Assembly (NCBI RefSeq): GCF_009914755.1
Contig: NC_060925.1
Origin: the human T2T-CHM13v2.0 reference genome, Homo sapiens
Strand: one strand, 5' to 3'
DNA: 64,000 nt
Each line of letters opens with the position of its first letter. Positions within the stretch are counted from its first letter, which is position 1. Below the pieces are notes generated by a model. The model saw only the letters and a list, made by a program, of their open reading frames with translations, was not told the origin of the DNA and ran no database searches. The translations under genes were made by a program, and so were the position numbers. Below, piece after piece: positions 1 through 30,339 of the stretch.

Positions 1-2118
1 AAGTGTCCAGTACTCTGCTGTGATAGCAAGAAATAGGTGTCAATAATATGCCTGATAGCCAATTTTTCTAGTTGTTCTTCTGATGCTAGTTACACTACAA
101 TGGAAATTAGACTCACAACTGTGTAATCTCCTTGTTGGCACTGTTTGAATAGCCTGCTCCTATTTTAGCAGCATTTTCCCCCAAACAGGCTAATTTTGGA
201 GAGTACGTTTGAATGTGGAAAGAGACATTTTAATCTGGAAGCATTTATTATAAACTCACATTGTTACAGCAAATGGCCCACATTCAAGAAGGAAGCACTC
301 TCTTATCATTTTTCGCCTTCCTTGATCTTCTGTTTGAAACAGAATGGATATGTATTGAATGTGCTAACTTGGTAAACATGCACTTTTATGGTGTCTCTGT
401 GAGCTGGCTTTGAACACGGTTCAGAGAGGTTTACAACAAAGAAGCCAGTCGGTGTCGGTTCGCCCAATGTCAACTTAAATACCAGGTTTATCCATGACTA
501 AACAATATGTTACGGGGATTTTCTTCTCAGAGCTTTGCTGGATTGGACTGTTTGTTTGGTATCACATAGACCTGGTTTAATTTCCTAAAATTCATGGCTT
601 CAGTGACAACCAAGTATATTTGCTGATGATGAATTTGAGCACTTATTTTTTTCTCTGTCTAACAAAACATACCGCAGACAACCTCATTCCCAACAGCCTA
701 ACAATAAGTAAGTTAGCATGTGATGCCTATGACTTCAACTTTAAAAATTTATGGTGCCTCTATTTATTCTTGTCAATTTTAAGAGTTAATGCAGCTTCTT
801 GAAAAATCGTTTAAGGGCAATGCGGTAAAACATGGGCATGTCTCACAGCAGAAATGTGAGATTTGCTCATATACAAAATCAAAACGGATCATAAAACAGC
901 CACTGAAACCTTTTGCCAATTGTCTGTAAAAGGAGACCCCTAATGACCTACAGCAGGAATATAGATGCAAAGTCGTACTTTGCCTCATGCCCTGGGGAGG
1001 TTTTTGGCCTTAAGATTTTGTCTCCTTGCTGCCAAATGCTGAAGCCAAGTGCATTGCTAAAGCTTTAGACACATTTTCATCAATAAAATTTCTTATAAAA
1101 CAGATCCTGAAAATGCTGAACCTATCTGCCAAGTAGCCAATTAATTATTTTACATCTTTGTTGAACAATGGGTAAAGGTTTTACCATCACAAATCAGTGT
1201 TCTGAAAACCACAAGGCCTAGCTTTCAATTAGCAGGAAGCATCACAATTAGGGATGAAAAGAAGTAATGCTGCATGTTGGAAATTCTCCCAATAAAGAAT
1301 AAAACTCCCAAGGAACAATGACCCAACTAATTTGAGGGAGTTAGGTTTTTAGAAAACCAGATCCTTGTTAAAGGGTAAAGCTCAAACACTGCTCAGATTC
1401 CTAGATGCCTCAGTCTTCTCATCCACCCTCCCAGTAGCCCTTTCTTTCCATAAGTTGTAGCTATTGAATTTGGACTATGCTTCCCCACTATGTGTTAGAT
1501 GCTGTGAATCCCAGTTCAAACACTGTGAGTCCACTCTATCATTGACAGGCACAATCCTGCACTGGGTCCATGGGGAATGGTGCCTCCAGTTCTATGATTC
1601 TCTGCATTTTCCAGAGAAGAGGAAAACCTTAGTACTCACACAGTTGATCTGGTTTGTCAAATTCAGGAATAGAAGGAGAGGCCCTGTAGGAGAGCATGTT
1701 TCAGGTCCCAGTCTGCTGACTTGGATCTTAAGGCAGGCCAATTGGAAACAGTGATGTCAAACTGAATAGGCCATGCAATCAAGTGTCATATTTGTTTACT
1801 TAACCAACAACCTGCAGGGAGACATAAGAAGCTGACAATTGGGAATGGAACAAGGAATTGTCTTTCAGGCTACAGTCCAGGGAAGAGGGAGACTAGAATC
1901 TTCATTCTTGAGTGAAATTCCTGAACCTTCTGGAACCCTGGGATATTTAAGTAGCAAGAGGTGTGTGTGTGGCGGAGTGTGTGGGGGGATGCAGAAGTCT
2001 CTAGAAACAATTTCATATGATAAAATAGGATGAAGCTTCTATTGAGAAGCTTGACTTGTCTTCTTGAGTCTCAGTATCTCCAGTATCCTCCGGGATATTA
2101 AGATATGTCTGTGATTGT

Positions 2119-2643
2119 TGTTAAATAAAAATTACAGGAGGCCATTGCTTTGGACTAGACTCCTGCACTAAGCCTCAACAGGCCAGACAAAATAAAAATG
2201 GAGTCACCCATGCTAAAGTTCCATGTCATCAAACTGAAACTAAGTTGTTGTCTAACATTCCAAGGAATCAGAAGAAAAAGATAACAGCCAATTTCCCAAA
2301 CAGGCCAGTTTCAGCTTTCAATTGTCATGTGAAGTTCCCTGTGTTTTCATCTTTAACTTGAAGTGACCTGATGTTAACCAGTCAGTTATTTTTCTATTGT
2401 TCTGTCTCTCTGTCCCCATCGTATAAGTAAAGTAACTTTGAAATGACCAATCCATTTTGTTTTGTTTTGTTTTGTTTCTGCTTTCCTCAGTCCTTTTTCT
2501 GCCTATAAAGCAAACCTCCTCTGCTCCACTCATCGAGACACTTATCCTATTTTATGGAATGAAGTGTTGCCTGATTCTAGAATCACAGTAAAATCAGTTG
2601 AGGTCATTTAATCTAAATTATGTTTTAATTTTGTCTTTTGACA
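2119..2643 (+). mobile_element. ERV1-class (MER4-group-like) solo LTR
   Basis: TG...CA termini (TGTTAAATAAAA ... CTTTTGACA); internal CCAAT and TATAAA; AAAATGGAGTC motif typical of ERV1 LTRs; exact family not assigned. Confidence 0.7.
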
Positions 2644-3550
2644 GGGTCCTTACTTTCAAATCTCTAACAATTTCAGGACATTGAACTTGCCCCTGGAGAA
2701 AACACCCACTCTCAACTGGCTTCGCTTGAACAAAAATTCCCAGAGTTGTGCATTTTGACCTTGGAGTCATAGGGGTGGCTCCTGTTGGAATTCCTGGAAG
2801 CCACAGATTTACATCAGAGAAAAAAAAAAAAATTGGCTTGGCTTTTTTCTCTTTACCCTGTCCAGGATGAAATCCCATACTTTCAGAAACTTGTTAGTGA
2901 AAACTGTTGGCAGGTCTTAGTACATGTGTTCAATACTTGTACCTTCTCCTGTCCCATGTGAGTGAATGTTCAGCTCTGGTCTTGCGCATGTTTTCTATCT
3001 CTGTGTTGCTAGCCAAGTCAAAATCATCCACACTACTTCTTCATGATGGGCCATGAGAAAGAATACTGAGAGGAATTTGGTACAGTTTTCTTTTTGGTAC
3101 CAGTTCAGCATCTGTGACATCCTCATTTTAAGGTGGCCCAATCTATAAAAGAAATTTGCATTTACAAATAAGATGAATTTGGTAGAATATAATTTTCTTT
3201 AAGAAAGGAGTTTTTATTAGTGGAATAACCACCGGCTCCCTTAATAATATACTCTTTAATGCTTCATTGCTGTGATTCAGATTTCTCTAAATCTGATTCC
3301 CAGAGAAGTTTTCAGAAGCATACTAATGATAGATCAATTGCTAGTAACATTCTTTATGGGGTCATACATAAAGTCCTTTAAGCAAATTATTCCTGAAAAA
3401 TGTGTTTGAAATTCAAATGTCTGAAAGGCAAACAAAACCCAACAAAACAATGACTTATATATTATAAGGGAAATGTGTTCCCAAAGAAATAGAAATATTA
3501 TGAAATCTCTGACTTGTTCAAGCATTATTTCCATAGGCTCAAGCCACCTC

Positions 3551-3950
3551 TGTCTTAGTCAGTTTGGGCTGCTATAACCAATATACCATAGACTAGGTGG
3601 CTTACAAAACAAATATTTATTTCTCACAGTTCTGGAGACTGGAGAGTCCAAGATTTAAGATGCTGGCTGATCCAGTGTCTGGTGAGGGCTCACTTCCTGG
3701 TTTACAGATAGCAATCTTCCTTATGTCCTCACCCAACAGAGAGCAGAGAGAGAGACAGAGAGACAGACAGAGAGAGACAGAGAGACAGACAGAGAGAGAG
3801 ACACACAGAGACAGAGAGAGAGAAACAGAGAGAGAGAGACAGAGAGAGAGAGAGAATCTCTCATATGTATCTACTTTTAAGGGCACTAATCCCATTTTTG
3901 AGGGATCCACACACATGATCTAATCACCTCTCAAAGACCCTACCTCCTAA
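3551..3950 (-). mobile_element. MaLR LTR (MLT1A-like), truncated
   Basis: TGTCTTAGTCAGTTTGGGCTGCTATAAC...TTTATTTCTCACAGTTCTGGAG...CATGATCTAATCACCTC matches MLT1 reverse complement. Confidence 0.85.
3737..3855. repeat. (GA)n/(GACA)n compound microsatellite inside MLT1
   Basis: directly visible. Confidence 0.95.
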
Positions 3951-3969
3951 TTCAGTCTGTAGCAACTGG

Positions 3970-4079
3970 AGCTGTGTGGTTTATACAGGATCACGTAGAA
4001 AGGTGGTACAACACACTGTCAATCACTTCCATTTTGTGTCTTCAATCTTTAAATCTGTCTGTCTCAGTCATACTGAGAA
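3970..4079 (+). repeat. ~110 bp direct repeat, copy 1 (copy 2 at 5725-5835)
   Basis: AGCTGTGTGGTTT.TACAGGATCAC.TAGAAA.GTGGTA...GTCAATCACTTCCATTTT...TCTCAGTCATACTGAGAA present twice. Confidence 0.9.
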
Positions 4080-4629
4080 CCTAGGCTAAAAAGAACATTC
4101 TCTGGTAGACGGGGGCTTGTGTACACAGGTGCCAATTTCCCCTGGGGTCTTGGAAGTCAAACCAAGCACCTACCAGTCCCCACCTTCATTGCAGAAGTCT
4201 GGGCTGAAAGCTGAGCAGTGTTTTACTTTCACACCTCCTGCTTGGATATGTTGGGTACTTTTCCTCACCACCATCACCTGAGTGAAGCCCTCTTAGGCAC
4301 AAGTGACTACTTTGGGGGGGGGTTTCTAACTGCTGCCTATCAAACAGTGGTGTTTTGAGCCAGGAAGCTGGATGACAGAAGAGGTTAATTCTTGAGGGGG
4401 TCCACAAGAGATGGATAGCTCCATTTATGTGATAAATAAGGTTCCCACCTCTGCCTCCTCATTTTGCTGTTTCCTGTTTCCCCTGCAACAAATAAACATA
4501 TTATCTTAGTATTCTGTAAGCAGAATCCAAAAAATAATACGCTGTGAATTATAAAATATAATTTGCCTCCTAAAAGATCACAAACATCTTATCTTGCATT
4601 ATGATGAAAGACAAGTTTGAGGCAATTAT

Positions 4630-4820
4630 CCCTAACAGTCAGAAAGAAGGGTAGACTTTCAGGCCAGATTTTATCATTTGCTAAATTTGGCACCTCTGGG
4701 CAAGTCTTTTGATCCTTGTGCCTCTCAGTGTCCTCATCTTTACTATGGGGAGAGTCACTCCAACCTCAATGGATTGCTAAGAGATGATGTATGGGAAACC
4801 ACCTTGTGTAATTCTTGGAA
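4630..4820. mobile_element. MIR fragment
   Basis: CTCTGGGCAAGTC...GTGCCTCTCAGTGTCCTCATCT MIR core-like. Confidence 0.6.
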
Positions 4821-5724
4821 CATCATACTACCTGAAAAAAATTTTCCATCTGAAAAATCTGTATTACTCAGTGGTGTTATAGAATAGATTCCTTTGTTCT
4901 GTTCAATAAGCTGCATTAACGTTCAGATGTTCAGCCCTTCTCTGTGTCTTTGAGCATGTGTGTGATGGTGAGGGCATGGGGAAGAGGGGACAAAATCCAA
5001 CATCACTTCTTGATATACTTTTTTTCCTTTTAGGACATTTAGTTTATTTCCTGTAAGCATTCATATCCTTATCTTTTTATCTCATCTTGTGATCTAACAT
5101 TGGATTAGAAGAGCTCTGAGAGGTAGGAACCCTCTATTTTATGGGAGTCTTCTCCCAGCTCAGCCTCAAAAGATGCACGCCCCCTGAGAGAGAGTCACAG
5201 CTGGCATGGCTCTGGGAGCAGATGTTTCTGAGAGAAATGCCTAGGTGGTTGGTCTCAACATAGAGCTGCAGGCGCCCCAGTGCCTGAACAAGGAATAAAA
5301 GGGATTCAGAAGTTTCCAACAAGGGGCAAAGAAGATGACTGGATATTAACCAGAGGGTGTTTTCCCTAGAGAGGACACAAGGGAAGCAAGAGCTGGTGCT
5401 CTAGCAGAGGGCTGCGTGTGGACCACTCAAGCTGAAAAGCAAATGAGAGCTGCAGTCACGTATTGGGAACAAGGATGCTGTGGGAACTGAGCAAGGGTCC
5501 CTGCAGCATCAGAAAAAATAGAGCTTTGACTGCAATTAGCAAACAAGACCTGCGCTGTATGAAGTGTGGACACCTCAAGGATGCGGAAGCCAGTAGAAGG
5601 ATAAGAAGGCCCTTCCTCACCTGTCGTAATGCACTTCCTGAAGAGAGCACAGTTTATTATAGAATCACGTGAACCCTTTGGTACCGAGCTGGTCTCCGGA
5701 AATAAGGAGTTGCTGGGGGTGGAA

Positions 5725-5835
5725 AGCTGTGTGGTTTGTACAGGATCACATAGAAAAGTGGTAGGACACACAGTCAATCACTTCCATTTTGGTGTCTTTA
5801 ATCTTCAAATCTGACTGTCTCAGTCATACTGAGAA
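5725..5835 (+). repeat. ~110 bp direct repeat, copy 2
   Basis: manual alignment to 3970-4079, roughly 85-90% identical. Confidence 0.9.
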
Positions 5836-5894
5836 AATTGAAGCAATTAAGAATTCAATTTGAGACTCAATAATAATTGTTTATAAACAGTATC

Positions 5895-6303
5895 TGATAT
5901 AGTTTGGATGTTTGTCCCCTCCAAATCTCATGCTGAAATGTAATCCCCAATGTTGGAAGTGGGGCCTAGTGGGGGGTTTTTGGGTCATGGAGGCAGAGAC
6001 CTCCTGAATGGCGTGGTGACTTCCCCTTGGCAATGAGCAAACTCTCACTCATGTGAGAGCTGGTTGTTTACAGGAGACTGGCACCTCCTCTTCTCTTTTG
6101 CTTTCTTTCTCACCAAGTGACACACCAGCTCCCTCTTTGCCTTCTGCCATGAGTGTCAGTTTCCTGAGGTCTTCACCAGAAGCAGTGCTGATGCCATGCT
6201 TGTACAGCCTGCAGAACTGTGAGCCGAATAAACCTCTTTTCTTTATAAATCACCCAGTCTTGGGTATTATTTTTTTTTTTGCAACACAAAATGAACTAAC
6301 ACA
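5895..6303 (+). mobile_element. MaLR solo LTR (MST family)
   Basis: TGATATAGTTTGGATGTTTGTCCCCTCCAAATCTCATG ... AATAAACCTCTTTTCTTTATAAAT ... ACTAACACA; flanks GTATC/GTATA. Confidence 0.9.
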
Positions 6304-21600: not shown

Positions 21601-22022
21601 TGTGTTAATCTATTTACATTGCTATACAGAAATACCTGAGACTGAGTAATTTATACCGAAAAGAGGTTTATTTTGGCTTATGGTTCTGTAGGCTGCACAG
21701 GAAGCATGGTGATAACATCTGCTTCTGGTGAGGACCTTACAAAGCTTACAATCATGATGGACGGCAAAGGGGGAGCCAGCATATCACATGGTAAGAGGGA
21801 GCAAGAGAGAGAGGATGGGGCACCAGCTTCCTTTTAAACAATCAGCTTTCTCAGAAACTAATAGAGAGAGAACTCACTTATCACCAAGGGGATGAAGCTA
21901 AACCATTCATGAGGAATTTGCCCCCACAATCCAACATCTGTCTCCCACCAGGCTCCACCTTCAACACTGGGGATCACATTTAACATGAGATTTAGAGGGG
22001 ACAAAACATCCAAACCATATGA
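21601..22022 (-). mobile_element. MaLR solo LTR (MST family)
   Basis: CATTGCTATACAGAAATACCTGAGACTG...CATGAGATTTAGAGGGGACAAAACATCCAAACCATA. Confidence 0.85.
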
Positions 22023-22354
22023 CTTTAATATTAAATTTGAAAAAATTCTTCACTTTTCATTCACATTTCAACTCTGGCAACCTGAATCTCATACAAACCT
22101 CTCCACTGAAGTTGTTTTTGTGAAAGTCACAGATGACCTGTTGATTGCTAACTCCCATGAATATCTTAAGGTTTAAATATTCCATGTCGGAACATATAAT
22201 AAGCACTAAAAGGCACATGTCAAGGTATAAAAAATGTTGCAAAACATACTACAAGGAATTGACATATTTAATCTGTAAAAGCCCCTTACAGAAATACTAT
22301 TAAAAGAGTAATTTATATAATATTATAATTTAAGAAAAAATTATAATTTGTTAA

Positions 22355-22789
22355 TGTCAGACCTCTGAGCCCAAGCCAAGCCATCGCATCCCCTGTGACT
22401 TGCACGTATATGCCCAGATGGCCTGAAGTAACTGAAGAATCACAAAAGAAGTGAAAAGGCCCTGCCCTGCCTTAACTGATGACATTCCACCATTGTGATT
22501 TGTTCCTGCCCCACCTTAACTGAGTGATTAACACTGTGAATTTCCTTCTCCTGGCTCAGAAGCTCCCCCACTGAGCACCTTGTGACCCCTGCCCCTGCCC
22601 ACCAGAGAACAAACCCCCTTTGACTGTAATTTTTCATTACCTTCCCAAATCCTACAAAACAGCCCCACCCTTATCTCCCTTCGCGGACTCTCTTTTCGGA
22701 CTCAGCCCACCTGCACCCAGGTGAAATAAACAGCTTTATTGCTCACACAAAGCCTGTTTGGTGGTCTCTTCACACGGACGCGCATGAAA
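22355..22789 (+). mobile_element. LTR7-family LTR, left copy, pointing rightwards
   Basis: TGTCAGACCTCTGAGCCCAAGCC ... AATAAA (22725-22730) ... CACACGGACGCGCATGAAA; TATA position reads CCTACAAAAC. Confidence 0.95.
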
Positions 22790-22791
22790 TT

Positions 22792-22809
22792 TGGTGCCAT
22801 GACTCGGAT
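22792..22809 (+). other. Primer binding site, tRNA-His (left copy)
   Basis: TGGTGCCATGACTCGGAT directly after LTR; one G>A from the tRNA-His complement TGGTGCCGTGACTCGGAT. Confidence 0.9.
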
Positions 22810-24819
22810 CGGGGGACCTCCCTTGGGAGATCAATCCCCCGTCCTCCTGCCCTTTGCTCCATGAGAAAGATCCACCTACGACCTCAGGTCCTCAGACCGA
22901 CCAGCCCAAGAAACATCTCACCAATTTCAAATCCAGTAAGCGGCCTCTTTTTACTCTCTTCTCCAACCTTCCTCACTATCCCTCAACCTCTTTCTCCTTT
23001 CAATCTTGGAGCCACACTTCAATCTCTCCCTTCTCTGGGGGTGGTATGGAGAGAGAATGGGTGATGGTTCTCAGGGCTGCTTCAAGCGGGATTAGGGGCG
23101 GCGTGGGAACGTAGAGTGGGAGAGATTAAGCTGAAGGAAGATCTTGTGGTAAGGGGTGATATTGTGGGGTTGCTAGAAGAAACATTTGTCGTATAGAATG
23201 ATTGGTGATGGCCTGGATACGGTTTTGTATGAATTGAAAAACTAAATGGAATAAGAGAAGGAGAAAAACAGGTATAAAAGGTCTAAGAATTGGGAGGACC
23301 TAGGACATCTGATTAGAGAGTGCCTAAGGAGATTCAGCATAGTCCTGCCAGCAAAGATTATTTATTTACTTCAAGAGTTTAGAGTGGCAGTTTGGGGATA
23401 GCACCAGGAGATATCAGCTGTGATGGCTTGGAGAAACAGTATAAACCGGCAGTGTAAACAAGAGCAGGGCATGTATGAGTAGTTGAGAACGGTGAATAGG
23501 AGTATGACTAGACAAAAGATAGTAGGGATGACAAGTTTTTTTGGGGCACAGTCTAAGTTGGTCTGGTGTCGAATGAGACTGGGGCCTAATAAAAAGGAGC
23601 ATCTATACAGGAGCTCAAATGGGCTGTACCTTGTAACATTCTGAGGACAGGCCTGAATTCTGAGAAGTGAAAGTGGTAAAAGTATTGTCCAGTCCTTTTT
23701 AAGTTGGTGGCTGAGCTTGGTGAGTTGTGTTTTTTAAAGACCTTTAGTCCGTTCTACTTTTCCTGAAGACGGAGGACCGTAAGGGATATAAAGGTTTCAC
23801 TGAATACTAAGAGCCTGAAAAACTGCTTGGCTGATTTGACTAATAAAGGCTGGTCTGTTGTCAGACTGTATAGAGGTGGGAAGGCTAAACTGAGGAATTA
23901 TGACTGACAGAAGGGAAGAAATGACTGCGGTGGCCTTCTCAGACCCTGTAGGAAAGGCCTTTACTTATTCACTGAAAGTGTCTATTTAGACTAAGAGGTA
24001 TTTTACTTTCCTGACTCGGGCATGTTGAGTAAAGCTAATTTGCCAGTCCTGGGTGGGGGCAAATCCTCGAGCTTGATGAGTAGGGAAGGGAGGGGGCCTG
24101 AATAATCCCTGAGGAGTAGTAGAATAGCAGATGGAACACTGAGAAGTTATTTCCTTGAGGATAGATTTCCAGGATGGAAAGGAAATGAGAGGTTCTGAGA
24201 GGCAGGCTAGTGGCTTGTACTATAGCATAGCCTGTCTTTGCTGGTGTGTGGCGATTAGGCCTGGTGGAACTGCCATCAATAAATCAAGTGTGATCAGGGT
24301 GAGGAACAGGAAAGAAGGAAATATGGGGAAATGGGGTGAATATCAGGTGGATCAGAGAGATACAGTCATGGGGGTCAGGTGTGGTATCAGGAATAATGTG
24401 AGAGGCTAGATTGAAGTCCGGGCCAGGAACAATGGTAATTGTGGGACTTAAAGAGTGAGTACAGCTGAAGGAGCTGGGGAGCAGAAAGTATATGCATCAG
24501 GTATGAGGAAGAAAATAGATTTTGGAAGTTATGAGAAATGTAGAGAGTGATTTGAGCATAGTTTGTGATTTTGAGGGCCTCTAACAGTATTAAAGCAGCG
24601 GCAGCTGCTGCACGCAGACATGAGGGCTAGGCTAAAACAGTAAGGTCAAGTTGTTTGGACAGAAAGGCTACAGGGTGTGGTCCTGGCTCTTGTGTAAGAA
24701 TTCTGACCGCACTAACCATGCCTAGGAAGGAAAGGAGTTGTTGTGTTGTAGAAGGTGCTGGGGTTTGAGAGATCAGTCGGACAAGATTGGCAGGGAGAGC
24801 ACGTGTGTTTTTATGAGAA

Positions 24820-25329
24820 TTATGCCGAGATAGGTAACAGATGAGGAAGAAATTTGGGCTTGATTGAAGTAATGGGGGCTGTCTGTGAAGCTTTGCGGCA
24901 GTACAGCCTAAGTAATTTGCTGAGCTTGATGGGTGTCAGGGTCAGTCCAAGTGAAAGCGAAGACAGGCTGGGATGAAGGGTGCAAAGGAATAGTAAAGAA
25001 GGCATGTTTGAGATCTAGAGCAGAATAATGGGTTGTAGAGGCAGGTATTGAGGATAGGAGAGTATATGGGTTTGGCACCACGGGGTGGATAGGCAAAACA
25101 ATTTGGTTGATAAGGCGCAGATCCTGTAAGGCTTGTCTGGTTTTAGGACAGGTAAAATGGGGGAATTGTAAGGAGCGTTTATAGGCTTTAAAAGGCCATG
25201 CTGTAGCAGGCGAGTGATAACAGGCTTTAATCTTTTTAAAGAGTGCTGTGGGATGGGATATTGGCGTTGAGTGGGGTAAGGGTGATTAGGTTTTAATGAG
25301 ATGGTAAGGGGTGCATGATCGGTCACCAA
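24820..25329 (-). pseudogene. pol: HERV-H pol (reverse transcriptase N-terminal) remnants, frameshifted and deleted
   Basis: QYPIP...LLKP...PYNSPILPVLKP and HPVVPNPYTLLS...LDLKHAFFTIPLHPSSQPVFAFTW. Confidence 0.9.
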
Positions 25330-25482
25330 GGAGGGAGTAGAGGTATCTTATACTTGTGGGTTAAGGTGAGGGGATACAAGAGGAGGACGCAAAGGAGGCT
25401 TTGGATTGGGAAGAAGGGCGGCAATGAGATATAGCTGTAGTCCAGGAATAGTCAGGGAAGCAGATAATTTAGTTAAAGTGTC

Positions 25483-25707
25483 TCAGCCTAATAACGGAAC
25501 TGGGCAGGTGGGGATAACTAAAAAGGAGTGCTTAAAAGAGTATTGTCTAAGTTGGCACCAGAGTTGGGGAGTTTTAAGAGGTTTAGAAGCCTGGCCGTCA
25601 ATACCCACAACAGTTATGGAGGCAAGGGAAACAGGCCCTTGAAAAGAAGGTGATGTGGAGTGGGTAGCCTCCATATTGATTAAGAAGGGGACGGGCTTAC
25701 CTTCCAC
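25483..25707 (-). pseudogene. pro: HERV-H protease remnant with degenerate catalytic motif
   Basis: PVPFLINMEATHS (D-T-G-A degenerate), VVGIDG, FLVIPTCPVPLLG. Confidence 0.85.
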
Positions 25708-25887
25708 TGTGAGAGTTACCTGAAGCTTGGTGTCCGTGATGGTCTAGGGGGCTTCTGAGGCAATTGGGCAGTATCAGTCTTCAGCTGCTAAGCTGAGAAG
25801 ATCTGGGAAGGAGTCAGTCAGAGAGCCTTGGGCCAGAGTTCCAAGGGCTCTGGGAGTGGCTGCCAGGTGAGTTGAACAGTCCAATTT

Positions 25888-26381
25888 TCAGTGGGGTCCC
25901 ACACAGATGGGATGCGGCTTAGGAGGAATCCCAGGCTGCAGGCATTCCTTGGCCCAGTGGCCAGATTTCCGGCACGTGTAGCAAGCTCCTGGGGGAGGAG
26001 GTTCTGGAGGAAGGCCTGGCTGCTGGGGTTCAGGCATTTGGAAGTTCTTGTGTGCTGGAGATGTGGCTGGTGTTTGTCTCACAGTGGAGGCAAGGAATTG
26101 CAACTTTTTTCTGTTATTGTACACCTTGAAGGTGAAGTTAATTAAGTCCTGTTGTGGGGTTTGAGGGCCAGATTCCAATTTTTGGAGTTTTATTTAATGT
26201 CGGGAGCAGATTGGGTAATAAAATGTATATTGAGAATAAGACGGCCTTTTGACTTTTTAGGGTCTAGGGCTGTAAAGCATCTCAGGGTTGCTGCCAAACG
26301 AGCCATGAACTGGGCTGGATTTTTATATTTGATGAAAAAGAGCCTAAACGCTTCTGATTTGGGATAAAGAAAAAGGAGCAT
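25888..26381 (-). pseudogene. gag: HERV-H gag C-terminal remnants (MHR and NC zinc knuckle)
   Basis: NPAQFMARL...HFITQSAPDIK; CYTCRKSGHWAKEC CCHC knuckle. Confidence 0.9.
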
Positions 26382-27208
26382 TAACCTTGACTATGCCTTT
26401 GGCTCCAGACACCTTTTTAAGAGTAAATTGCTGGGCAGGTGGGGGAAGGCTAGTCATGGAACGAAACTGTAAGCCGGACCAGTTGTGATGAGGGGAGGTG
26501 ATAAAAAGATTGTAGGGTGGAGGAGCAGAGGCTGAGGAAGAATTGGGACCTAGCTTGGTCTGGAGAGGAGCAGCCTGGGGAGGAAGGGAGAGGTCAGATG
26601 GGTCTGTAGAAAAGGAAGATTAGAAAGACTCAGCGAAGCTTGGGGTTGGCACTGAGGGGACAGGCAGGAGGGAAAGAAGGAAGATTTGGGACGAGTTGCA
26701 CTGGGCACAGAGACTAGGAAGGGACTGATGTGTAAAAGAATGCCTGGACGTCAGGCACCTCAGACCATTTGCCTATTTCACAACAAGAATTATTTAGATC
26801 TTGCAGGATGGAAAAATTCAAAGTGCCATTTTCTGGCTATTTGGAACTACTGTCAAGTTTGTATTGGGGTCAAGTGGCATTGCAGAAGAAAAGGAATTTA
26901 GGTTTTAGGTCAGGTGTGAGTTGAAGAGGTTTTAAGTTTTTGAGAACAAAGGCTAAGGGAGAAGAAGGAGGAATGGAGGGTGGAAGGTTGCCCATAGTGA
27001 AGGAGGCAAACCCAGAGAAGAGAGCATAGAGACATAGAGGGAAGGGGTTCGGGGGTTCTTACCCTCCTGAAAAGTGGGAAGGGGGGTTGGGGCACGGAAA
27101 TAAGGGATTGGGGCACAGAGATAAGAGGTAGGGGTATGGAAATAAGGGATTGGGGCACAGATAAGAGGTTAGGGTGTGGAAATAAGGGATTGGGGGTTCT
27201 TGCCCCCT

Positions 27209-27400
27209 AGAAAAGCGGGACTTGTCGCTAAGGGTGAAGGAGAAGGGGTTGAGAGGTACTTGCCCCTCCCCCAGAAAAGCGGGACTTGGCGCTAAGGGTG
27301 AAGGAGAAGGGGTTGAGGGGTACTTCCCCCTGCCCCAGGAAAGCTGGACTTGCCACTAAGGGTGAAGGAGAAGGGGTTGAGGGGTACTTGCCCCTCTCCT
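27209..27400. repeat. 3 x 64 bp tandem units in the HERV-H leader
   Basis: AG(A/G)AAAGC.GGACTTG..CTAAGGGTGAAGGAGAAGGGGTTGAG.GGTACTT.CCCCT recurring at 27209, 27273, 27337. Confidence 0.85.
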
Positions 27401-28591
27401 AGAAAAGCAGAGAAGGGGTAGAGACAAGGAGAGAAGGGGTTGGGGTACTTGCCCCTTCCCCAGAAAAGCAGAGAAGGGGTAGAGACCAGGAGAGAAGGGG
27501 TTGGGGTACTTGCCCCTTCCCCAGAAAAGCAGAGAAGGGGTAGAGACAAGGAGAGAAGGGGTTGGGGTACTTGCCCCTTCCCCAGAAAAGCAGAGAAGGG
27601 GTAGAGACCAGGAGAGAAGGGGTTGGGGTACTTGCCCCTTCCCCAGAAAAGCAGAGAAGGGGTAGAGACCAGGAGAGAAGGGGTTGGGGTACTTGCCCCT
27701 TCCCCAGAAAAGCAGAGAAGGGGTAGAAACAAGGAGAGAAGGGGTTGGGGTACTTGCCATTTCCCCAGAAAAGCAGAGAAGGGGTAGAGACAAGGAGAGA
27801 AGGGGTTGGGGTACTTGCCCCTTCCCCAGAAAAGCAGAGAAGGGGTAGAGACAAGGAGAGAAGGGGTTGGGGTACTTGCCCCTTCCCCAGAAAAGCAGAG
27901 AAGGGGTAGAAACAAGGAGAGAAGGGGTTGGGGTACTTGCCATTTCCCCAGAAAAGCAGAGAAGGGGTAGAGACAAGGAGAGAAGGGGTTGGGGTACTTG
28001 CCTCTTCCCCAGAAAAGCAGAGAAGGGGTAGAGACAAGGAGAGAAGGGGTTGAGGTACTTGCCATTTCCCCAGAAAAGCAGAGAAGGGGTAGAGACAAGG
28101 AGAGAAGGGGTTGGGGTACTTGCCTCTTCCCCAGAAAAGCAGAGAAGGGGTAGAGACAAGGAGAGAAGGGGTTGAGGTACTTGCCCCTTCCCCAGAAAAG
28201 TGGGACTTGCTGCTAAGGGTGAAGGACCAAGGCAGGCGTCCCTGCATGGTCTGACACCTTTGAAACGTGGGTGAATAATCAGAAAAGCGTCCCTGCAATG
28301 ATTAAACACTAAGGGAAGTTTGCCTTCCCAGTCCGTGACCGGCGCCGGAGTTTTGGGTCCACAGATAAAACGTGTCTCCTTTGTCTCTATGGGAAAATGA
28401 AAGGAATTGAAATTAAGAGAAGGGAGAGATTGAAGTGTGGCGCCAAGATTGAAAGGAGAAAGAGGTTGAGGGATAGTGAGGAAGGTTGGAGAAGAGAGTA
28501 AAAAGAGGCCGCTTACTGGATTTGAAATTGGTGAGATGTTTCTTGGGCTGGTTGGTCTGAGGACCTGAGGTCGTAGGTGGATCTTTCTCAT
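27356..28591 (-). CDS. Putative 411 aa HERV-H leader ORF (ESRG-like) with minisatellite-encoded repeats; translation unproven
   Basis: uninterrupted ATG-started ORF; N-terminal RKIHLRPQVLRPTSPRNISP and C-terminal GASTPQPLLLHP resemble the predicted ESRG/HESRG peptide as I recall it. Confidence 0.3.
   Translation of the reverse strand: MRKIHLRPQVLRPTSPRNISPISNPVSGLFLLSSPTFLTIPQPLSPFNLGATLQSLPSLNFNSFHFPIETKETRFICGPKTPAPVTDWEGKLPLVFNHCRDAFLIIHPRFKGVRPCRDACLGPSPLAASPTFLGKGQVPQPLLSLSLPLLCFSGEEASTPTPSLLVSTPSLLFWGNGKYLNPFSPCLYPFSAFLGKRQVPQPLLSLSLPLLCFSGEMASTPTPSLLVSTPSLLFWGRGKYPNPFSPCLYPFSAFLGKGQVPQPLLSLSLPLLCFSGEMASTPTPSLLVSTPSLLFWGRGKYPNPFSPGLYPFSAFLGKGQVPQPLLSWSLPLLCFSGEGASTPTPSLLVSTPSLLFWGRGKYPNPFSPGLYPFSAFLGKGQVPQPLLSLSLPLLCFSRRGASTPQPLLLHP
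27401..28193. repeat. 13 x 61 bp G-rich minisatellite in the HERV-H leader
   Basis: unit AGAAAAGCAGAGAAGGGGTAGAGACAAGGAGAGAAGGGGTTGGGGTACTTGCCCCTTCCCC starting every 61 bp from 27401 to 28133. Confidence 0.97.
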
Positions 28592-28642
28592 GGAGCAAAG
28601 AGCAGGAGGATGGAGGATTGATCTCCCAAGGGAGGTCCCCCG

Positions 28643-28660
28643 ATCCGAGTCATGGCACCA
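28643..28660 (-). other. Primer binding site, tRNA-His (right copy)
   Basis: reverse complement TGGTGCCATGACTCGGAT, same G>A variant as the left copy. Confidence 0.9.
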
Positions 28661-28662
28661 AA

Positions 28663-29096
28663 TTTCATGCGTGTCCGTGTGAAGAGACCACCAAACAGGC
28701 TTTGTGTGAGCAATAAAGCTGTTTATTTCACCTGGGTGCAGGTGGGCTGAGTCCGAAAAGAGAGTCCGCGAAGGGAGATAAGGGTGGGGCCGTTTTATAG
28801 GATTTGGGAAGGTAATGGAAAATTACAGTCAAAGGGGGTTGTTCTCTGGTGGGCAGGGGCAGGGGTCACAAGGTGCTCAGTGGGGGAGCTTCTGAGCCAG
28901 GAGTAGGAAATTCACAGTGTTAATCACTCAGTTAAGGTGGGGAAGGAACAAATCACAATGGTGGAATGTCATCAGTTAAGGCGGGGCAGGGCCTTTTCAC
29001 TTCTTTTGTGATTCTTCAGTTACTTCAGGCCATCTGGGCGTATATGTGCAAGTCACAGGGGATGCGATGGGTTGGCTTGGGCTCAGAGGCCTGACA
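28663..29096 (-). mobile_element. LTR7-family LTR, true 5' LTR, pointing leftwards
   Basis: reverse complement TGTCAGGCCTCTGAGCCC...CCTATAAAAC...AATAAA...CATGAAA; intact TATA. Confidence 0.95.
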
Positions 29097-29106
29097 GTAA
29101 ATATGA

Positions 29107-29410
29107 GGCTGGGTGTGGTGGCTCACACCTGTAATCCCAGCACCTTGGGAGGCTGAGGTAGGCGGATCACTTGGGGTCAGGAGTTTGAAATCAGCCAGCC
29201 TAGCCAACATGCTGAAACCCCATCTATACTAAAAATACAAAAAAATTAGCTGGGTGTGGAGGTGGGTGCCTGTAATACCAGCTACTTGGGAGGCTGAGGC
29301 AGGGAGAATCACTTGAATCCAGGAGGCAGAGGTTGCAGTGAGCTGAGATCATGCCACTGCACTCTAGCCTGAGTGACAGAGCAAGACTCTGCCTCAAAAT
29401 AAATAAATAA
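29107..29410 (+). mobile_element. Alu (AluS-like)
   Basis: full dimeric Alu with (AAAT)n tail. Confidence 0.9.
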
Positions 29411-30339
29411 TTAAGAAAGCATTCACTTTGTTTGTTAGCCAAATACCTGTTAAGATATTTGTAAAGCAGACATGACTTCCAGTGCTAGTACAACTGTGGT
29501 AAAATAGGTACTCTCAGAATTATGTGTCAACTTTGTTTTTGAGGATATTCATCATGGGCTTATTACTAAGGGCAAAATTGTAGAAACAAATAAAATTTCC
29601 AAAAACAGGTAATTGGTTAAATTACAATATATTTTAAATATCAGAAGATGATATAGGTAGTTTATTAACATTGGAAAATAGTTAAGATACAGGAAGGGAT
29701 GTAAAGATGTGGTGGGAGAGAAGAAAAAAATGCAAAATGTTTGAAATGTTTTTTTCTTTGCCTTTCTGTATTTTCTGAGTTTTTGCAACAGGCATTGATT
29801 TCATAACTAGAAATTAAACACATTACATTACAGATGAATATTTTGTTATAATTAATAATAAGCTCTAATAACAAAGGCGACATCAATATATCATACCTAG
29901 GGGCTGAGATTTTGCTAGGTCTATGGAAAAGCCGCGAGTTGGAGGTGGTGTTGCTGGAAAACTGCTAGTGGGCAGTTATTCTGTAAGGTTAAATAAGATG
30001 GACTCTTGCATTATAGCCATCTGAGAAGCCCATGGTTAGAGTGGTCACCTCTTACGGAACCTGAGGAGGCTGACAAAACATGTGCCCGACTAAAACACTT
30101 CATCAGATCATGGAAAAGAAAGCAGATTTTGGGTTAAATGAGTAATGGAGAACTGAATACGCCCTATCCTCCAGGGAGAAGAGTTGGGAGAGGTTGGAGG
30201 AGGTGTGATTTTAAGTAAGTCTTGGACAAGTCTGAACTTGCCCAGCCCACAGGCAAGCAGGTAGGAGGTTGTTATGCTCCTTCAGGAATCAGGCCTGACT
30301 GAGGCCCTGTCCAGGATGGTGGAAAGGAAGGGCCACCAC

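What the first reader, a model, noticed from the sequence alone, without database searches (positions are those of the whole stretch)
22355..29096. HERV-H provirus with inverted LTRs: a copy-back-like element with two 5' ends and no 3' LTR
Seen: 22355-23036 (LTR + PBS-His + ~245 bp leader, plus strand) is the reverse complement of 28416-29096, so the element has ~680 bp terminal inverted repeats. The minus-strand internal region joins the inverted leader at 23036/23037 (CCCTTCTCT|GGGGGTGGTATGG). Both outer ends are exact U3 termini (TGTCAG.../...CTGACA) and the flanks are GTTAA / GTAAA, a 4/5 match. Established: proviruses have direct LTRs, one PBS and one PPT; by my recollection of the HERV-H consensus the junction lies only tens of bp upstream of the PPT, which is absent here. 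Inference: a single element formed by a strand-inverting template switch, either during reverse transcription followed by integration through two U3 att ends (analogous to copy-back defective genomes) or by a precise post-integration rearrangement.
Basis: partly seen in the sequence, partly recalled or inferred. Interest (0 to 1): 0.88.

Follow-up and report, generated by a model that had tools for sequence, protein, structure and literature searches.

The report
HERV-H provirus with inverted end copies
An ancient retrovirus copy in human chromosome 1 carries its front end twice, once at each end and pointing inwards, most likely because a malformed viral DNA with two identical ends was inserted in a single event.

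Summary
Window 22355-23036 is the reverse complement of 28416-29096: 682 nt, 97.5% identical.

The element is a minus-strand HERV-H. It is normal from its 5' LTR (29096) to a point 62-73 nt upstream of where the 3' LTR begins in 19 of 19 ordinary copies. There it joins an inverted copy of its own 5' LTR, PBS and 227 nt of leader. The polypurine tract and 3' LTR are absent.

Evidence that the arms share one origin:
- They are sisters among the 28 nearest genomic copies, with support 96/92 and equal end branches.
- They share three states absent from all 28.
- They differ by 2.5% over the LTR, inside the 1.6-6.0% range between the two LTRs of nine related proviruses.
- The flanks GTTAA/GTAAA match 4 of 5. 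Nine of nine relatives have perfect 5-bp duplications, and chance gives 4 of 5 or better in 2-3% of local 5-mers.

Best reading (about 0.7): one integration of an aberrant viral DNA bearing two U3 ends. It was made either by a strand-inverting switch in reverse transcription or by end-joining of two cDNA pieces.

The decisive tests could not be run: ape and monkey orthologues, and long reads. I rate it a curiosity, a new variant of a known kind.

The parts
22350..22354 (.). left flank GTTAA, candidate target-site duplication (4 of 5 match with the right flank)
   Evidence: 9 of 9 relatives have perfect 5-bp duplications; 4 of 5 or better by chance in 2.3-2.9% of 5986 local 5-mers
22355..22789 (+). 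left arm: LTR7-type LTR (435 nt), plus orientation, inverted relative to the provirus body; starts with the exact U3 terminus TGTCAG
22790..22809 (+). left arm: TT dinucleotide plus 18-nt primer-binding site
   Evidence: pattern match at window 22790-22809
22810..23036 (+). left arm: copy of the first 227 nt of leader; ends at the inversion junction 23036/23037
23037..28415 (-). HERV-H internal region, collinear with ordinary copies from leader to a point 62-73 nt before the 3' LTR; broken gag-pro-pol
   Evidence: provirus positions 1262-6060 align to relative L061 896-5659, 94.4% over 4821 columns
24908..25285 (-). reverse transcriptase fragment in an open stretch of 125 aa
   Evidence: RVT_1, E 5.4e-6, 26.7 bits (below Pfam cut-off 29.6)
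25483..25743 (-). retroviral protease fragment
   Evidence: RVP, E 6.2e-4, 20.5 bits (cut-off 20.7)
25888..26193 (-). gag nucleocapsid zinc knuckle
   Evidence: zf-CCHC, E 5.1e-6, 26.8 bits (cut-off 20.8)
27368..28200 (-). 61-nt tandem repeat, 13.6 copies; a usual HERV-H feature, expanded here
   Evidence: 3.7-9.6 copies of period 61 in 6 of 9 relatives
28416..28642 (-). right arm: first 227 nt of leader, in normal continuity with the internal region
28643..28662 (-). right arm: primer-binding site plus TT
   Evidence: pattern match at window 28643-28662
28663..29096 (-). right arm: genuine 5' LTR (434 nt) of the minus-strand provirus
29097..29101 (.). right flank GTAAA, candidate target-site duplication

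Best explanation
This is one HERV-H insertion whose DNA was already malformed when it integrated.

Shown directly: a provirus on the minus strand is ordinary from the first base of its 5' LTR to a point 62-73 nt upstream of the 3' LTR. There the sequence turns round and continues as the reverse complement of its own leader (227 nt), PBS and 5' LTR, ending at the first base of U3.

Inferred: before integration, a linear viral DNA with a U3 terminus at both ends was formed by one of two routes.
(a) A single strand-inverting switch in reverse transcription. A plus-strand DNA, begun normally at the U3 boundary and extended 247 nt past the LTR, left its template and continued on a plus-sense template just upstream of the polypurine tract. 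Everything after that follows the normal path, including run-off at the U3 start.
(b) Host end-joining of two cDNA pieces, each keeping its U3 end. This includes the case in which two cDNA molecules each gave one U3 end to a single integration.

The viral integrase then inserted the two U3 ends. Both carry the canonical ...CA-3'. The insertion made a 5-bp target duplication, which has since taken one substitution.

My odds for a single integration of an inverted-end DNA are about 0.7. Within that, roughly 0.4 is for route (a) and 0.3 for route (b).
For: 1. The arms are each other's nearest relatives. Among the 40 scored matches of 3316 candidates, the right arm is the best match to the left arm (1150 bits, 97.5%); the next best is 1119 bits, 96.5%.

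2. In a tree of the two arms and the 28 nearest 5' ends (681 columns) the arms are sisters with support 96/92. Their end branches are equal, 0.016 each, against a median of 0.031. In an LTR-only tree with both LTRs of nine relatives they pair at 91/88, like true LTR pairs.

3. They share three states absent from 28 of 28 relatives: 22533 A, 22685 G and 22970 T. Two are transversions and one is a non-CpG transition. They also share three further minority states, found in 5, 5 and 2 of the 28.

4. No other exact 61-mer carrying any of the three was among the scored matches: 40 scored of 272, 1906 and 869 candidates.

5. The arms differ at 11 of 434 LTR positions (2.53%). The two LTRs of nine related proviruses differ by 1.61-6.02%, median 3.0%. 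The arms therefore began to diverge at about the time such elements integrated.

6. The 17 differences are spread evenly; the longest identical run is 119 nt. There is no sign of gene conversion.

7. The flanks GTTAA/GTAAA match 4 of 5. HERV-H makes 5-bp duplications, perfect in 9 of 9 relatives. Only 2.3-2.9% of 5986 local 5-mers match that well.

8. The palindrome ends at both U3 termini. That is expected for ends set by plus-strand priming and run-off, not for copying within the chromosome.

9. No other HERV-H piece lies in the 64-kb window.

10. In HIV-1, proviruses with inverted segments formed before integration are a recognised class: 6% of 531 sequences (PMC6235535, passages) and 2 of 78 (PMC9278108, passages). 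Template switching in reverse transcription is held to have shaped HERV-H widely (PMC8912925, passages).
Against: 1. The target duplication is imperfect, while 9 of 9 relatives have perfect ones. By my estimate, exactly 4 of 5 is only about five times likelier under a true duplication than under chance.

2. Whether the two flanks are contiguous was not tested. Both are unique in this genome, so no paralogous empty site exists, and no other primate genome was available.

3. One of the three shared states, 22685 G, is not unique. The exact 21-mer occurs in three other LTR7-like copies out of 637 matches at up to one mismatch. Those copies are only 80-86% like the arm.

4. The 61-mer searches scored only 40 candidates each, so uniqueness holds only for what was scored.

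5. Only 3 of 9 true LTR pairs were recovered as sisters in the LTR-only tree. These short trees are weak.

6. The junction has 0-1 nt of homology. This says nothing for reverse transcriptase over end-joining, or over a later chromosomal deletion.

7. No second element of this form was found to show a recurrent mechanism. Only 100 of 674 PBS sites could be inspected.
Confidence: 0.7

Rival explanations
1. Two independent HERV-H proviruses integrated tail to tail a few kb apart. A later chromosomal deletion removed most of the left one (from 247 nt past its 5' LTR), the spacer, and the right one's 3' LTR plus about 72 nt.
For: The 0-1 nt junction fits end-joining after a deletion. The flank match is imperfect while 9 of 9 relatives have perfect duplications. 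Large inverted repeats are known to provoke rearrangements (recalled; PMC10164571 was seen only in the search listing).
Against: Independent copies should not be sisters at 96/92. Nor should they share three states absent from 28 of 28 relatives plus three more minority states. Rescuing this needs either a sibling origin with no other progeny among the scored matches, or an early gene conversion over at least 440 nt. Conversion strong enough to homogenise arms about 95% alike should not then have stopped, yet the arms now show 17 evenly spread differences. The model also needs a 2-3% chance flank match. Of 100 listed PBS sites, no other pair lies within 10 kb, so close pairs are rare.
Confidence: 0.15
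2. A chromosomal inversion with one breakpoint in each of two like-oriented HERV-H proviruses on chromosome 1. This locus is one product. The other would carry two 3' LTRs facing each other.
For: The geometry gives exactly the observed structure (my own derivation, no call). HERV-mediated rearrangements in primate evolution are known (recalled).
Against: The same kinship problem as the deletion model. The 3' LTRs of the two parents should carry the shared LTR variants, but no close relative with them was found. The flank match would be chance. The partner junction could not be searched for directly, because intact copies outrank it among the 40 scored matches.
Confidence: 0.04
3. A normal provirus was rearranged after integration. 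A break near its 3' end was repaired by fold-back or template-switching replication that copied the distant 5' LTR and leader in inverted orientation.
For: Replication-based inverted duplications with little or no homology at the joins are known in the human genome (recalled). The arms would start identical, as observed.
Against: Such copying has no reason to stop at the first base of U3 and then rejoin the host DNA exactly at the old provirus boundary. The inverted repeat does not extend into the flanks beyond 3 of 4 bases. The left flank is not a remnant of the provirus 3' end: its alignment score was reached by 353 of 500 shuffles.
Confidence: 0.05
4. Assembly artefact: the left LTR region was placed in the wrong orientation.
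For: None from my calls.
Against: The arms differ at 17 positions and the left arm includes 247 nt that no 3' LTR has. A flipped 3' LTR therefore cannot explain it. The junction 120-mer is a single clean sequence. Reads were not available to me.
Confidence: 0.02

Closest known systems
Ordinary HERV-H provirus (LTR7 - HERVH internal - LTR7), the common shortened form of about 5.7-6.2 kb
   Same: LTR of 434 nt starting TGTCAGG. The same PBS as 674 genomic sites. Internal region collinear with relatives at 90-95% identity. A 61-nt tandem repeat after the leader. Broken gag-pro-pol.
   Different: No 3' LTR, no polypurine tract and none of the last 62-73 nt of the internal region. In their place is an inverted 5' LTR, PBS and 227-nt leader. 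The flank repeat matches 4 of 5 rather than 5 of 5.
Defective HIV-1 proviruses with inverted segments or asymmetric LTRs
   Same: A rearrangement made before integration and attributed to errors of reverse transcription. Inversions are reported in 6% of 531 sequences (PMC6235535, passages) and 2 of 78 (PMC9278108, passages). Frequent loss of 3' LTR sequence is also reported (PMC9278108, passages).
   Different: In the passages I read, the inverted part is described as a region of the proviral genome. Here the terminal LTR itself is inverted, so integration must have used two U3 ends. This one is also a germ-line fossil.
Copy-back defective genomes of negative-strand RNA viruses (recalled; not looked up here)
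   Same: One genome end is present at both termini in inverted orientation, with a single polymerase switch point, so each strand can form a panhandle.
   Different: Those are replicating RNA genomes made by an RNA polymerase. This is DNA, made by reverse transcription or end-joining, integrated once, and shows no sign of having been copied again (junction unique among scored matches).
DIRS-type retrotransposons with inverted terminal repeats
   Same: Inverted long terminal repeats around a retroelement body. These were the only hits for 'inverted LTRs' with 'LTR retrotransposon' (3 of 3 papers, listing only).
   Different: In DIRS the inverted repeats are the family's normal design and go with a tyrosine recombinase. 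Here they are a one-off defect of a retrovirus whose 9 of 9 examined relatives have direct LTRs.
5'-inverted L1 insertions made by twin priming (recalled)
   Same: An inversion junction with little homology, created during the insertion event itself and flanked by a target duplication.
   Different: That is target-primed reverse transcription of a non-LTR element. No LTRs or integrase are involved.

Membership tests
HERV-H (LTR7 / HERVH internal) | LTR7-type LTR | tested here: met
   Both arms align over the full 434 nt at 92-97% to the LTRs of 10 genomic HERV-H loci. The name LTR7 is recalled and appears in PMC8912925; no repeat library was run.
HERV-H (LTR7 / HERVH internal) | Primer-binding site of the family directly after the LTR | tested here: met
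   The 20-nt pattern (TT plus PBS) occurs at 674 genomic sites with up to 1 mismatch and in both arms with 0 mismatches; the reversed control gave 0. That it pairs with tRNA-His is recalled.
HERV-H (LTR7 / HERVH internal) | Internal region with gag-pro-pol remnants collinear with other copies | tested here: met
   3 of 15 open stretches hit the zinc knuckle, protease and reverse transcriptase families, in that order on the minus strand.
Canonical provirus architecture | Two LTRs in direct orientation | tested here: not met
   The LTRs are inverted.
Canonical provirus architecture | Polypurine tract next to a 3' LTR | tested here: not met
   The body stops 62-73 nt before the position of the 3' LTR seen in 19 of 19 copies.
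Canonical provirus architecture | 5-bp target-site duplication | tested here: inconclusive
   GTTAA / GTAAA match 4 of 5. Relatives are perfect in 9 of 9. Chance gives 4 of 5 or better in 2.3-2.9% of local 5-mers.
Copy-back type defective viral genome | Both termini are the same genome end, in inverted orientation, with one switch point | tested here: met
Copy-back type defective viral genome | Made by the viral polymerase switching strands during genome synthesis | not testable with these tools
   The 0-1 nt junction homology does not separate reverse transcriptase from end-joining.
Copy-back type defective viral genome | Propagates as a defective genome (more than one copy) | tested here: not met
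   Of 40 scored matches (1744 candidates) to the junction 120-mer, only the locus itself spans the junction; the other 39 cover one half only.
DIRS-like retrotransposons | Tyrosine recombinase gene and family-wide inverted repeats | tested here: not met
   No recombinase family among the 15 open stretches scanned. Relatives have direct LTRs, 9 of 9.

The most novel reading that the evidence does not exclude
This locus is a germ-line fossil of a retroviral 'copy-back' DNA. A single strand-inverting switch by reverse transcriptase produced a genome with the 5' LTR, PBS and leader at both ends, and the integrase inserted it through two U3 ends. That would be natural evidence that a U3/U3 pair is sufficient for concerted integration in vivo.

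A further, untested reading: the two LTR7 promoters now face each other across 5.4 kb. If active, they would give transcripts that are complementary to each other and carry terminal complementarity of several hundred nt within the 682-nt arms.
Probability: 0.4. Interest if true: 0.6.

Novelty: new variant of a known kind. Interest (0 to 1): 0.45.

Why it matters
Proviruses rearranged before integration are well known from HIV-1 sequencing. An endogenous retrovirus whose terminal LTR itself is inverted is different. It implies that a DNA with two U3 ends, no U5 end and no polypurine tract was still integrated and fixed in the germ line.

If confirmed by an empty site in an outgroup, it would be a natural record of U3/U3 integration. 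It would also give a template for finding more such elements in other ERV families.

There is a practical point too. Annotation pipelines that expect direct LTRs will split or mislabel such loci, and methods that date a provirus from its 5' and 3' LTRs need to recognise them.

Its effect on the host is unknown. No gene is annotated in the window. I found no description of this structure in the open library. 'HERV-H' with 'inverted LTR' gave 0 papers. 'LTR retrotransposon' with 'inverted LTRs' gave 3 papers, all on Dictyostelium DIRS. Subscription journals were not searched.

Tried and rejected
1. Left flank as a remnant of the provirus 3' end. To the eye, the AT-rich 22290-22354 resembled the reverse complement of the last 70 nt of the HERV-H body, which would have meant a nested insertion. 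The local alignment score of 12 was reached by 353 of 500 shuffles. Rejected.

2. Paralogous empty site. The 400 nt left of the element match other loci only over their first 64-90 nt (39 other scored matches). The 400 nt right of the neighbouring Alu match only themselves (1 of 1). Flank contiguity therefore cannot be tested inside this genome.

3. Genome-wide scan for other facing PBS pairs. The pattern search counts 674 sites but lists only 100. Among those, only this pair lies within 10 kb. The other 574 were not inspected.

4. Partner product of an inversion. I could not search for it, because intact copies outrank a half-match among the 40 scored candidates.

5. Uniqueness of the shared variants. 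The exact 21-mer around 22685 turned up three more copies. I fetched them and found them only 80-86% like the arm, so they are not close kin.

6. The 61-nt tandem repeat. It looked unusual at first, but it is a regular HERV-H feature.

7. Literature. Searches found no description of an ERV with inverted LTRs. The PCIP-seq preprint (10.1101/558130, passages) reports deletions and duplications but does not contain the words 'inversion' or 'inverted'. A locus label 'HERVH_1q41f' appears in PMC12495673 (passage), but I cannot tie it to this locus.

Full report
**What is there**

Window 22355-23036 (plus strand) and 28416-29096 (minus strand) are copies of the same 682 nt, 97.5% identical, in inverted orientation with 5379 nt between them.

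Each copy consists of:
- an LTR: 435 nt on the left and 434 nt on the right, the left having one extra A;
- the dinucleotide TT;
- an 18-nt primer-binding site;
- 227 nt of leader.

The outer ends are tgtcag... and ...ctgaca, the first bases of the LTR. The flanks are GTTAA on the left and GTAAA on the right. An Alu starts 10 nt to the right of the element.

The body between the arms is a HERV-H internal region on the minus strand. It aligns collinearly with related proviruses; for example, provirus positions 1262-6060 align to positions 896-5659 of relative L061 at 94.4% over 4821 columns.

Short open stretches hit a gag zinc knuckle, the retroviral protease and reverse transcriptase, in that order from right to left. 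That is 3 of 15 stretches; two of the three hits are below Pfam's curated cut-off.

The right arm runs on without a break into the normal leader. So the right arm is the true 5' end and the left arm is the odd part.

**Where the turn lies**

I searched the genome with the 800 nt of body next to the junction. In 19 of 19 ordinary copies the sequence ...CCATACCACCCCC continues for another 62-73 nt, ending in the purine-rich ...AAGAAGGCAGGAA, and then the 3' LTR begins. Here that tail and the whole 3' LTR are missing, and the inverted leader follows directly.

The join has 0 or 1 nt of homology: one A could belong to either side.

A 120-nt probe across the join found no second copy. Of 40 scored matches (1744 candidates) only the locus itself spans the join; 36 cover the leader half only and 3 cover the body half only.

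**Are the arms one element's or two?**

*Nearest relatives.* The left arm's best match in the genome is the right arm (97.5%). The next best is 96.5%, and the remainder of the 28 fall to 94.3% (40 scored of 3316 candidates).

*Differences.* In an alignment with the 28 nearest other 5' ends, the arms differ at 17 positions. At every non-CpG difference one arm carries the state found in nearly all the others. Those are therefore private changes in one arm.

*Shared states.* The arms share three states seen in none of the 28: 22533 A, 22685 G and 22970 T. None is a CpG transition. They also share three minority states, seen in 5, 5 and 2 of the 28.

*Uniqueness.* 61-nt probes centred on the three states found no other exact match among the scored candidates: 40 scored of 272, 1906 and 869. 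An exact whole-genome count for the 21-mer around 22685 gave five sites: the two arms and three others, out of 637 matches at up to one mismatch. The three others are only 80-86% like the arm, so they are distant subfamily members and not siblings.

*Trees.* With the full 682 nt, the arms are sisters with support 96/92 and equal end branches of 0.016, half the median of 0.031 (the bootstrap had not fully settled). With the LTR alone and both LTRs of nine relatives, they pair at 91/88. Only 3 of the 9 true LTR pairs were recovered as sisters, so these short trees are weak.

**Timing**

I fetched ten related loci. Nine had both LTRs in the stretch fetched; L068 showed only one and was dropped. 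Their two LTRs differ by 1.61-6.02%, median 3.0%. The two arms here differ by 2.53% over the LTR.

So the arms began to diverge at about the time elements of this kind integrated.

The differences are evenly spread; the longest identical run is 119 nt. This speaks against gene conversion. Conversion able to make two independent copies (about 95% alike) identical should have kept working on identical arms, yet they have since drifted 2.5% apart.

**The flanks**

All nine relatives have perfect 5-bp target duplications. Here the match is 4 of 5.

Among 5986 local 5-mers, 2.3% match GTTAA and 2.9% match GTAAA at four or more positions. With about 2.5% divergence, a true duplication would show exactly one mismatch roughly one time in eight. 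The observation therefore favours a true duplication only about five-fold. This is an estimate of mine.

The inverted repeat does not continue into the flanks. The left flank is not a remnant of the provirus tail.

**How it most likely arose**

Both outer ends are exact U3 termini abutting unrelated host DNA. That is the signature of integrase, not of copying within a chromosome. So either two proviruses were involved, or one DNA with two U3 ends was integrated. The kinship, timing and flank evidence favour the second.

The simplest path needs one abnormal step. This is inference, built on the textbook scheme of reverse transcription, which is recalled.
1. A plus-strand DNA starts normally at the U3 boundary.
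2. It is transferred normally and extended 247 nt past the LTR.
3. It leaves its template and continues on a plus-sense template, the second packaged RNA or another plus strand, 62-73 nt upstream of the U3 boundary, just 5' of the polypurine tract.
4. From there it behaves as a normal minus strand, through to the normal finish with run-off at the U3 start.

The product has U3 at both ends and lacks the polypurine tract and 3' LTR, as observed. The switch point follows a run of five or six C. Such runs are known pause sites (recalled), but I give this little weight.

A second path is host end-joining of two cDNA pieces that each keep a U3 end. This includes a single integration that took one U3 end from each of two cDNA molecules, with the free ends then joined. 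The data do not separate the two paths.

The U3 end gives the canonical ...CA-3'. The normal U5 end of these LTRs reads ...GAAA in 9 of 9 relatives. A U3/U3 pair is therefore not an obviously poor substrate; this too is inference.

**Rivals**

- *Two tail-to-tail proviruses fused by a deletion (0.15).* This needs a rare close pair: no other pair within 10 kb among the 100 listed of 674 PBS sites. It also needs a deletion with both ends inside the elements, a chance flank match, and either sibling origin or an early conversion that then ceased.
- *A chromosomal inversion between two proviruses (0.04).* This has the same kinship problem, and no kin 3' LTRs were found.
- *A fold-back repair after integration (0.05).* This does not explain why copying stopped at the first base of U3.
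- *An assembly error (0.02).* This cannot create 247 nt of PBS and leader beside a flipped LTR with 17 differences.

**Comparison with what is known**

HIV-1 proviruses with inverted segments are a recognised defect class: 6% of 531 (PMC6235535, passages) and 2 of 78 (PMC9278108, passages). The same work reports frequent loss of 3' LTR sequence.

HERV-H history is full of template-switch recombination. It has about 748 LTR7 proviruses, inserted in waves at 25-40, 9-20 and 4-10 million years ago (PMC8912925, passages).

I did not find an endogenous retrovirus with an inverted terminal LTR described in print. The searches were made, over the open library only. 'Inverted LTRs' brought up only DIRS elements of Dictyostelium, where the inversion is the family's design.

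The element works like a copy-back genome in its architecture. It is not a member of that class in the sense of a replicating defective genome, because its junction is unique.

**Verdict**

It is a new variant of a known kind and of moderate interest.

The decisive test is the orthologous site in other primates, which these tools could not reach.

Noticed in passing
window 27368-28200 (minus strand): The 61-nt tandem repeat after the leader has 13.6 copies here, against 3.7-9.6 in the 6 of 9 relatives that show period 61. The other three show periods of 21, 42 or 63. The repeat is a variable minisatellite inside HERV-H, and it makes this element about 400 nt longer than its relatives.
   Followed up: partly
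L061-L070 (nine related proviruses) and window 22789 / 28663: The 3' end of these LTRs reads ...CATGAAA directly before a perfect 5-bp target duplication in 9 of 9 relatives. The integrated U5 end therefore does not finish in the usual CA, while the U3 end is a canonical TG...
   Followed up: no
window 22725-22740 (and the mirror site in the right arm): The R region reads AATAAACAGCTTTATT, so an AATAAA hexamer is present on both strands within 16 nt. A transcript from the right LTR running antisense through the inverted left LTR would still meet a polyadenylation hexamer.
   Followed up: no
window 29107-29415: An Alu on the plus strand lies 10 nt from the right end of the provirus. Its own target duplication is not obvious in the A-rich sequence, so the order of the two insertions could not be read.
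   Followed up: no
window 21955-22040: The first 64-90 nt of this stretch belong to a highly repeated family (2499 candidates in the genome). That family ends about 310 nt before the provirus; the sequence between it and the provirus is unique.
   Followed up: partly
L071, L072, L073 (G000 C6:121.65 Mb, C12:4.03 Mb, C19:23.17 Mb): Three LTR7-like copies only 80-86% like the arm carry the same 21-mer with the rare G of window 22685. The state may be ancestral in older LTR7 subfamilies, or it may have arisen more than once.
   Followed up: partly
LTR tree (L062, L066): The 5' LTR of L062 pairs with the 3' LTR of L066 (88/80) rather than with its own partner. This may be noise in a star-like tree, or a hint of exchange between proviruses.
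   Followed up: no
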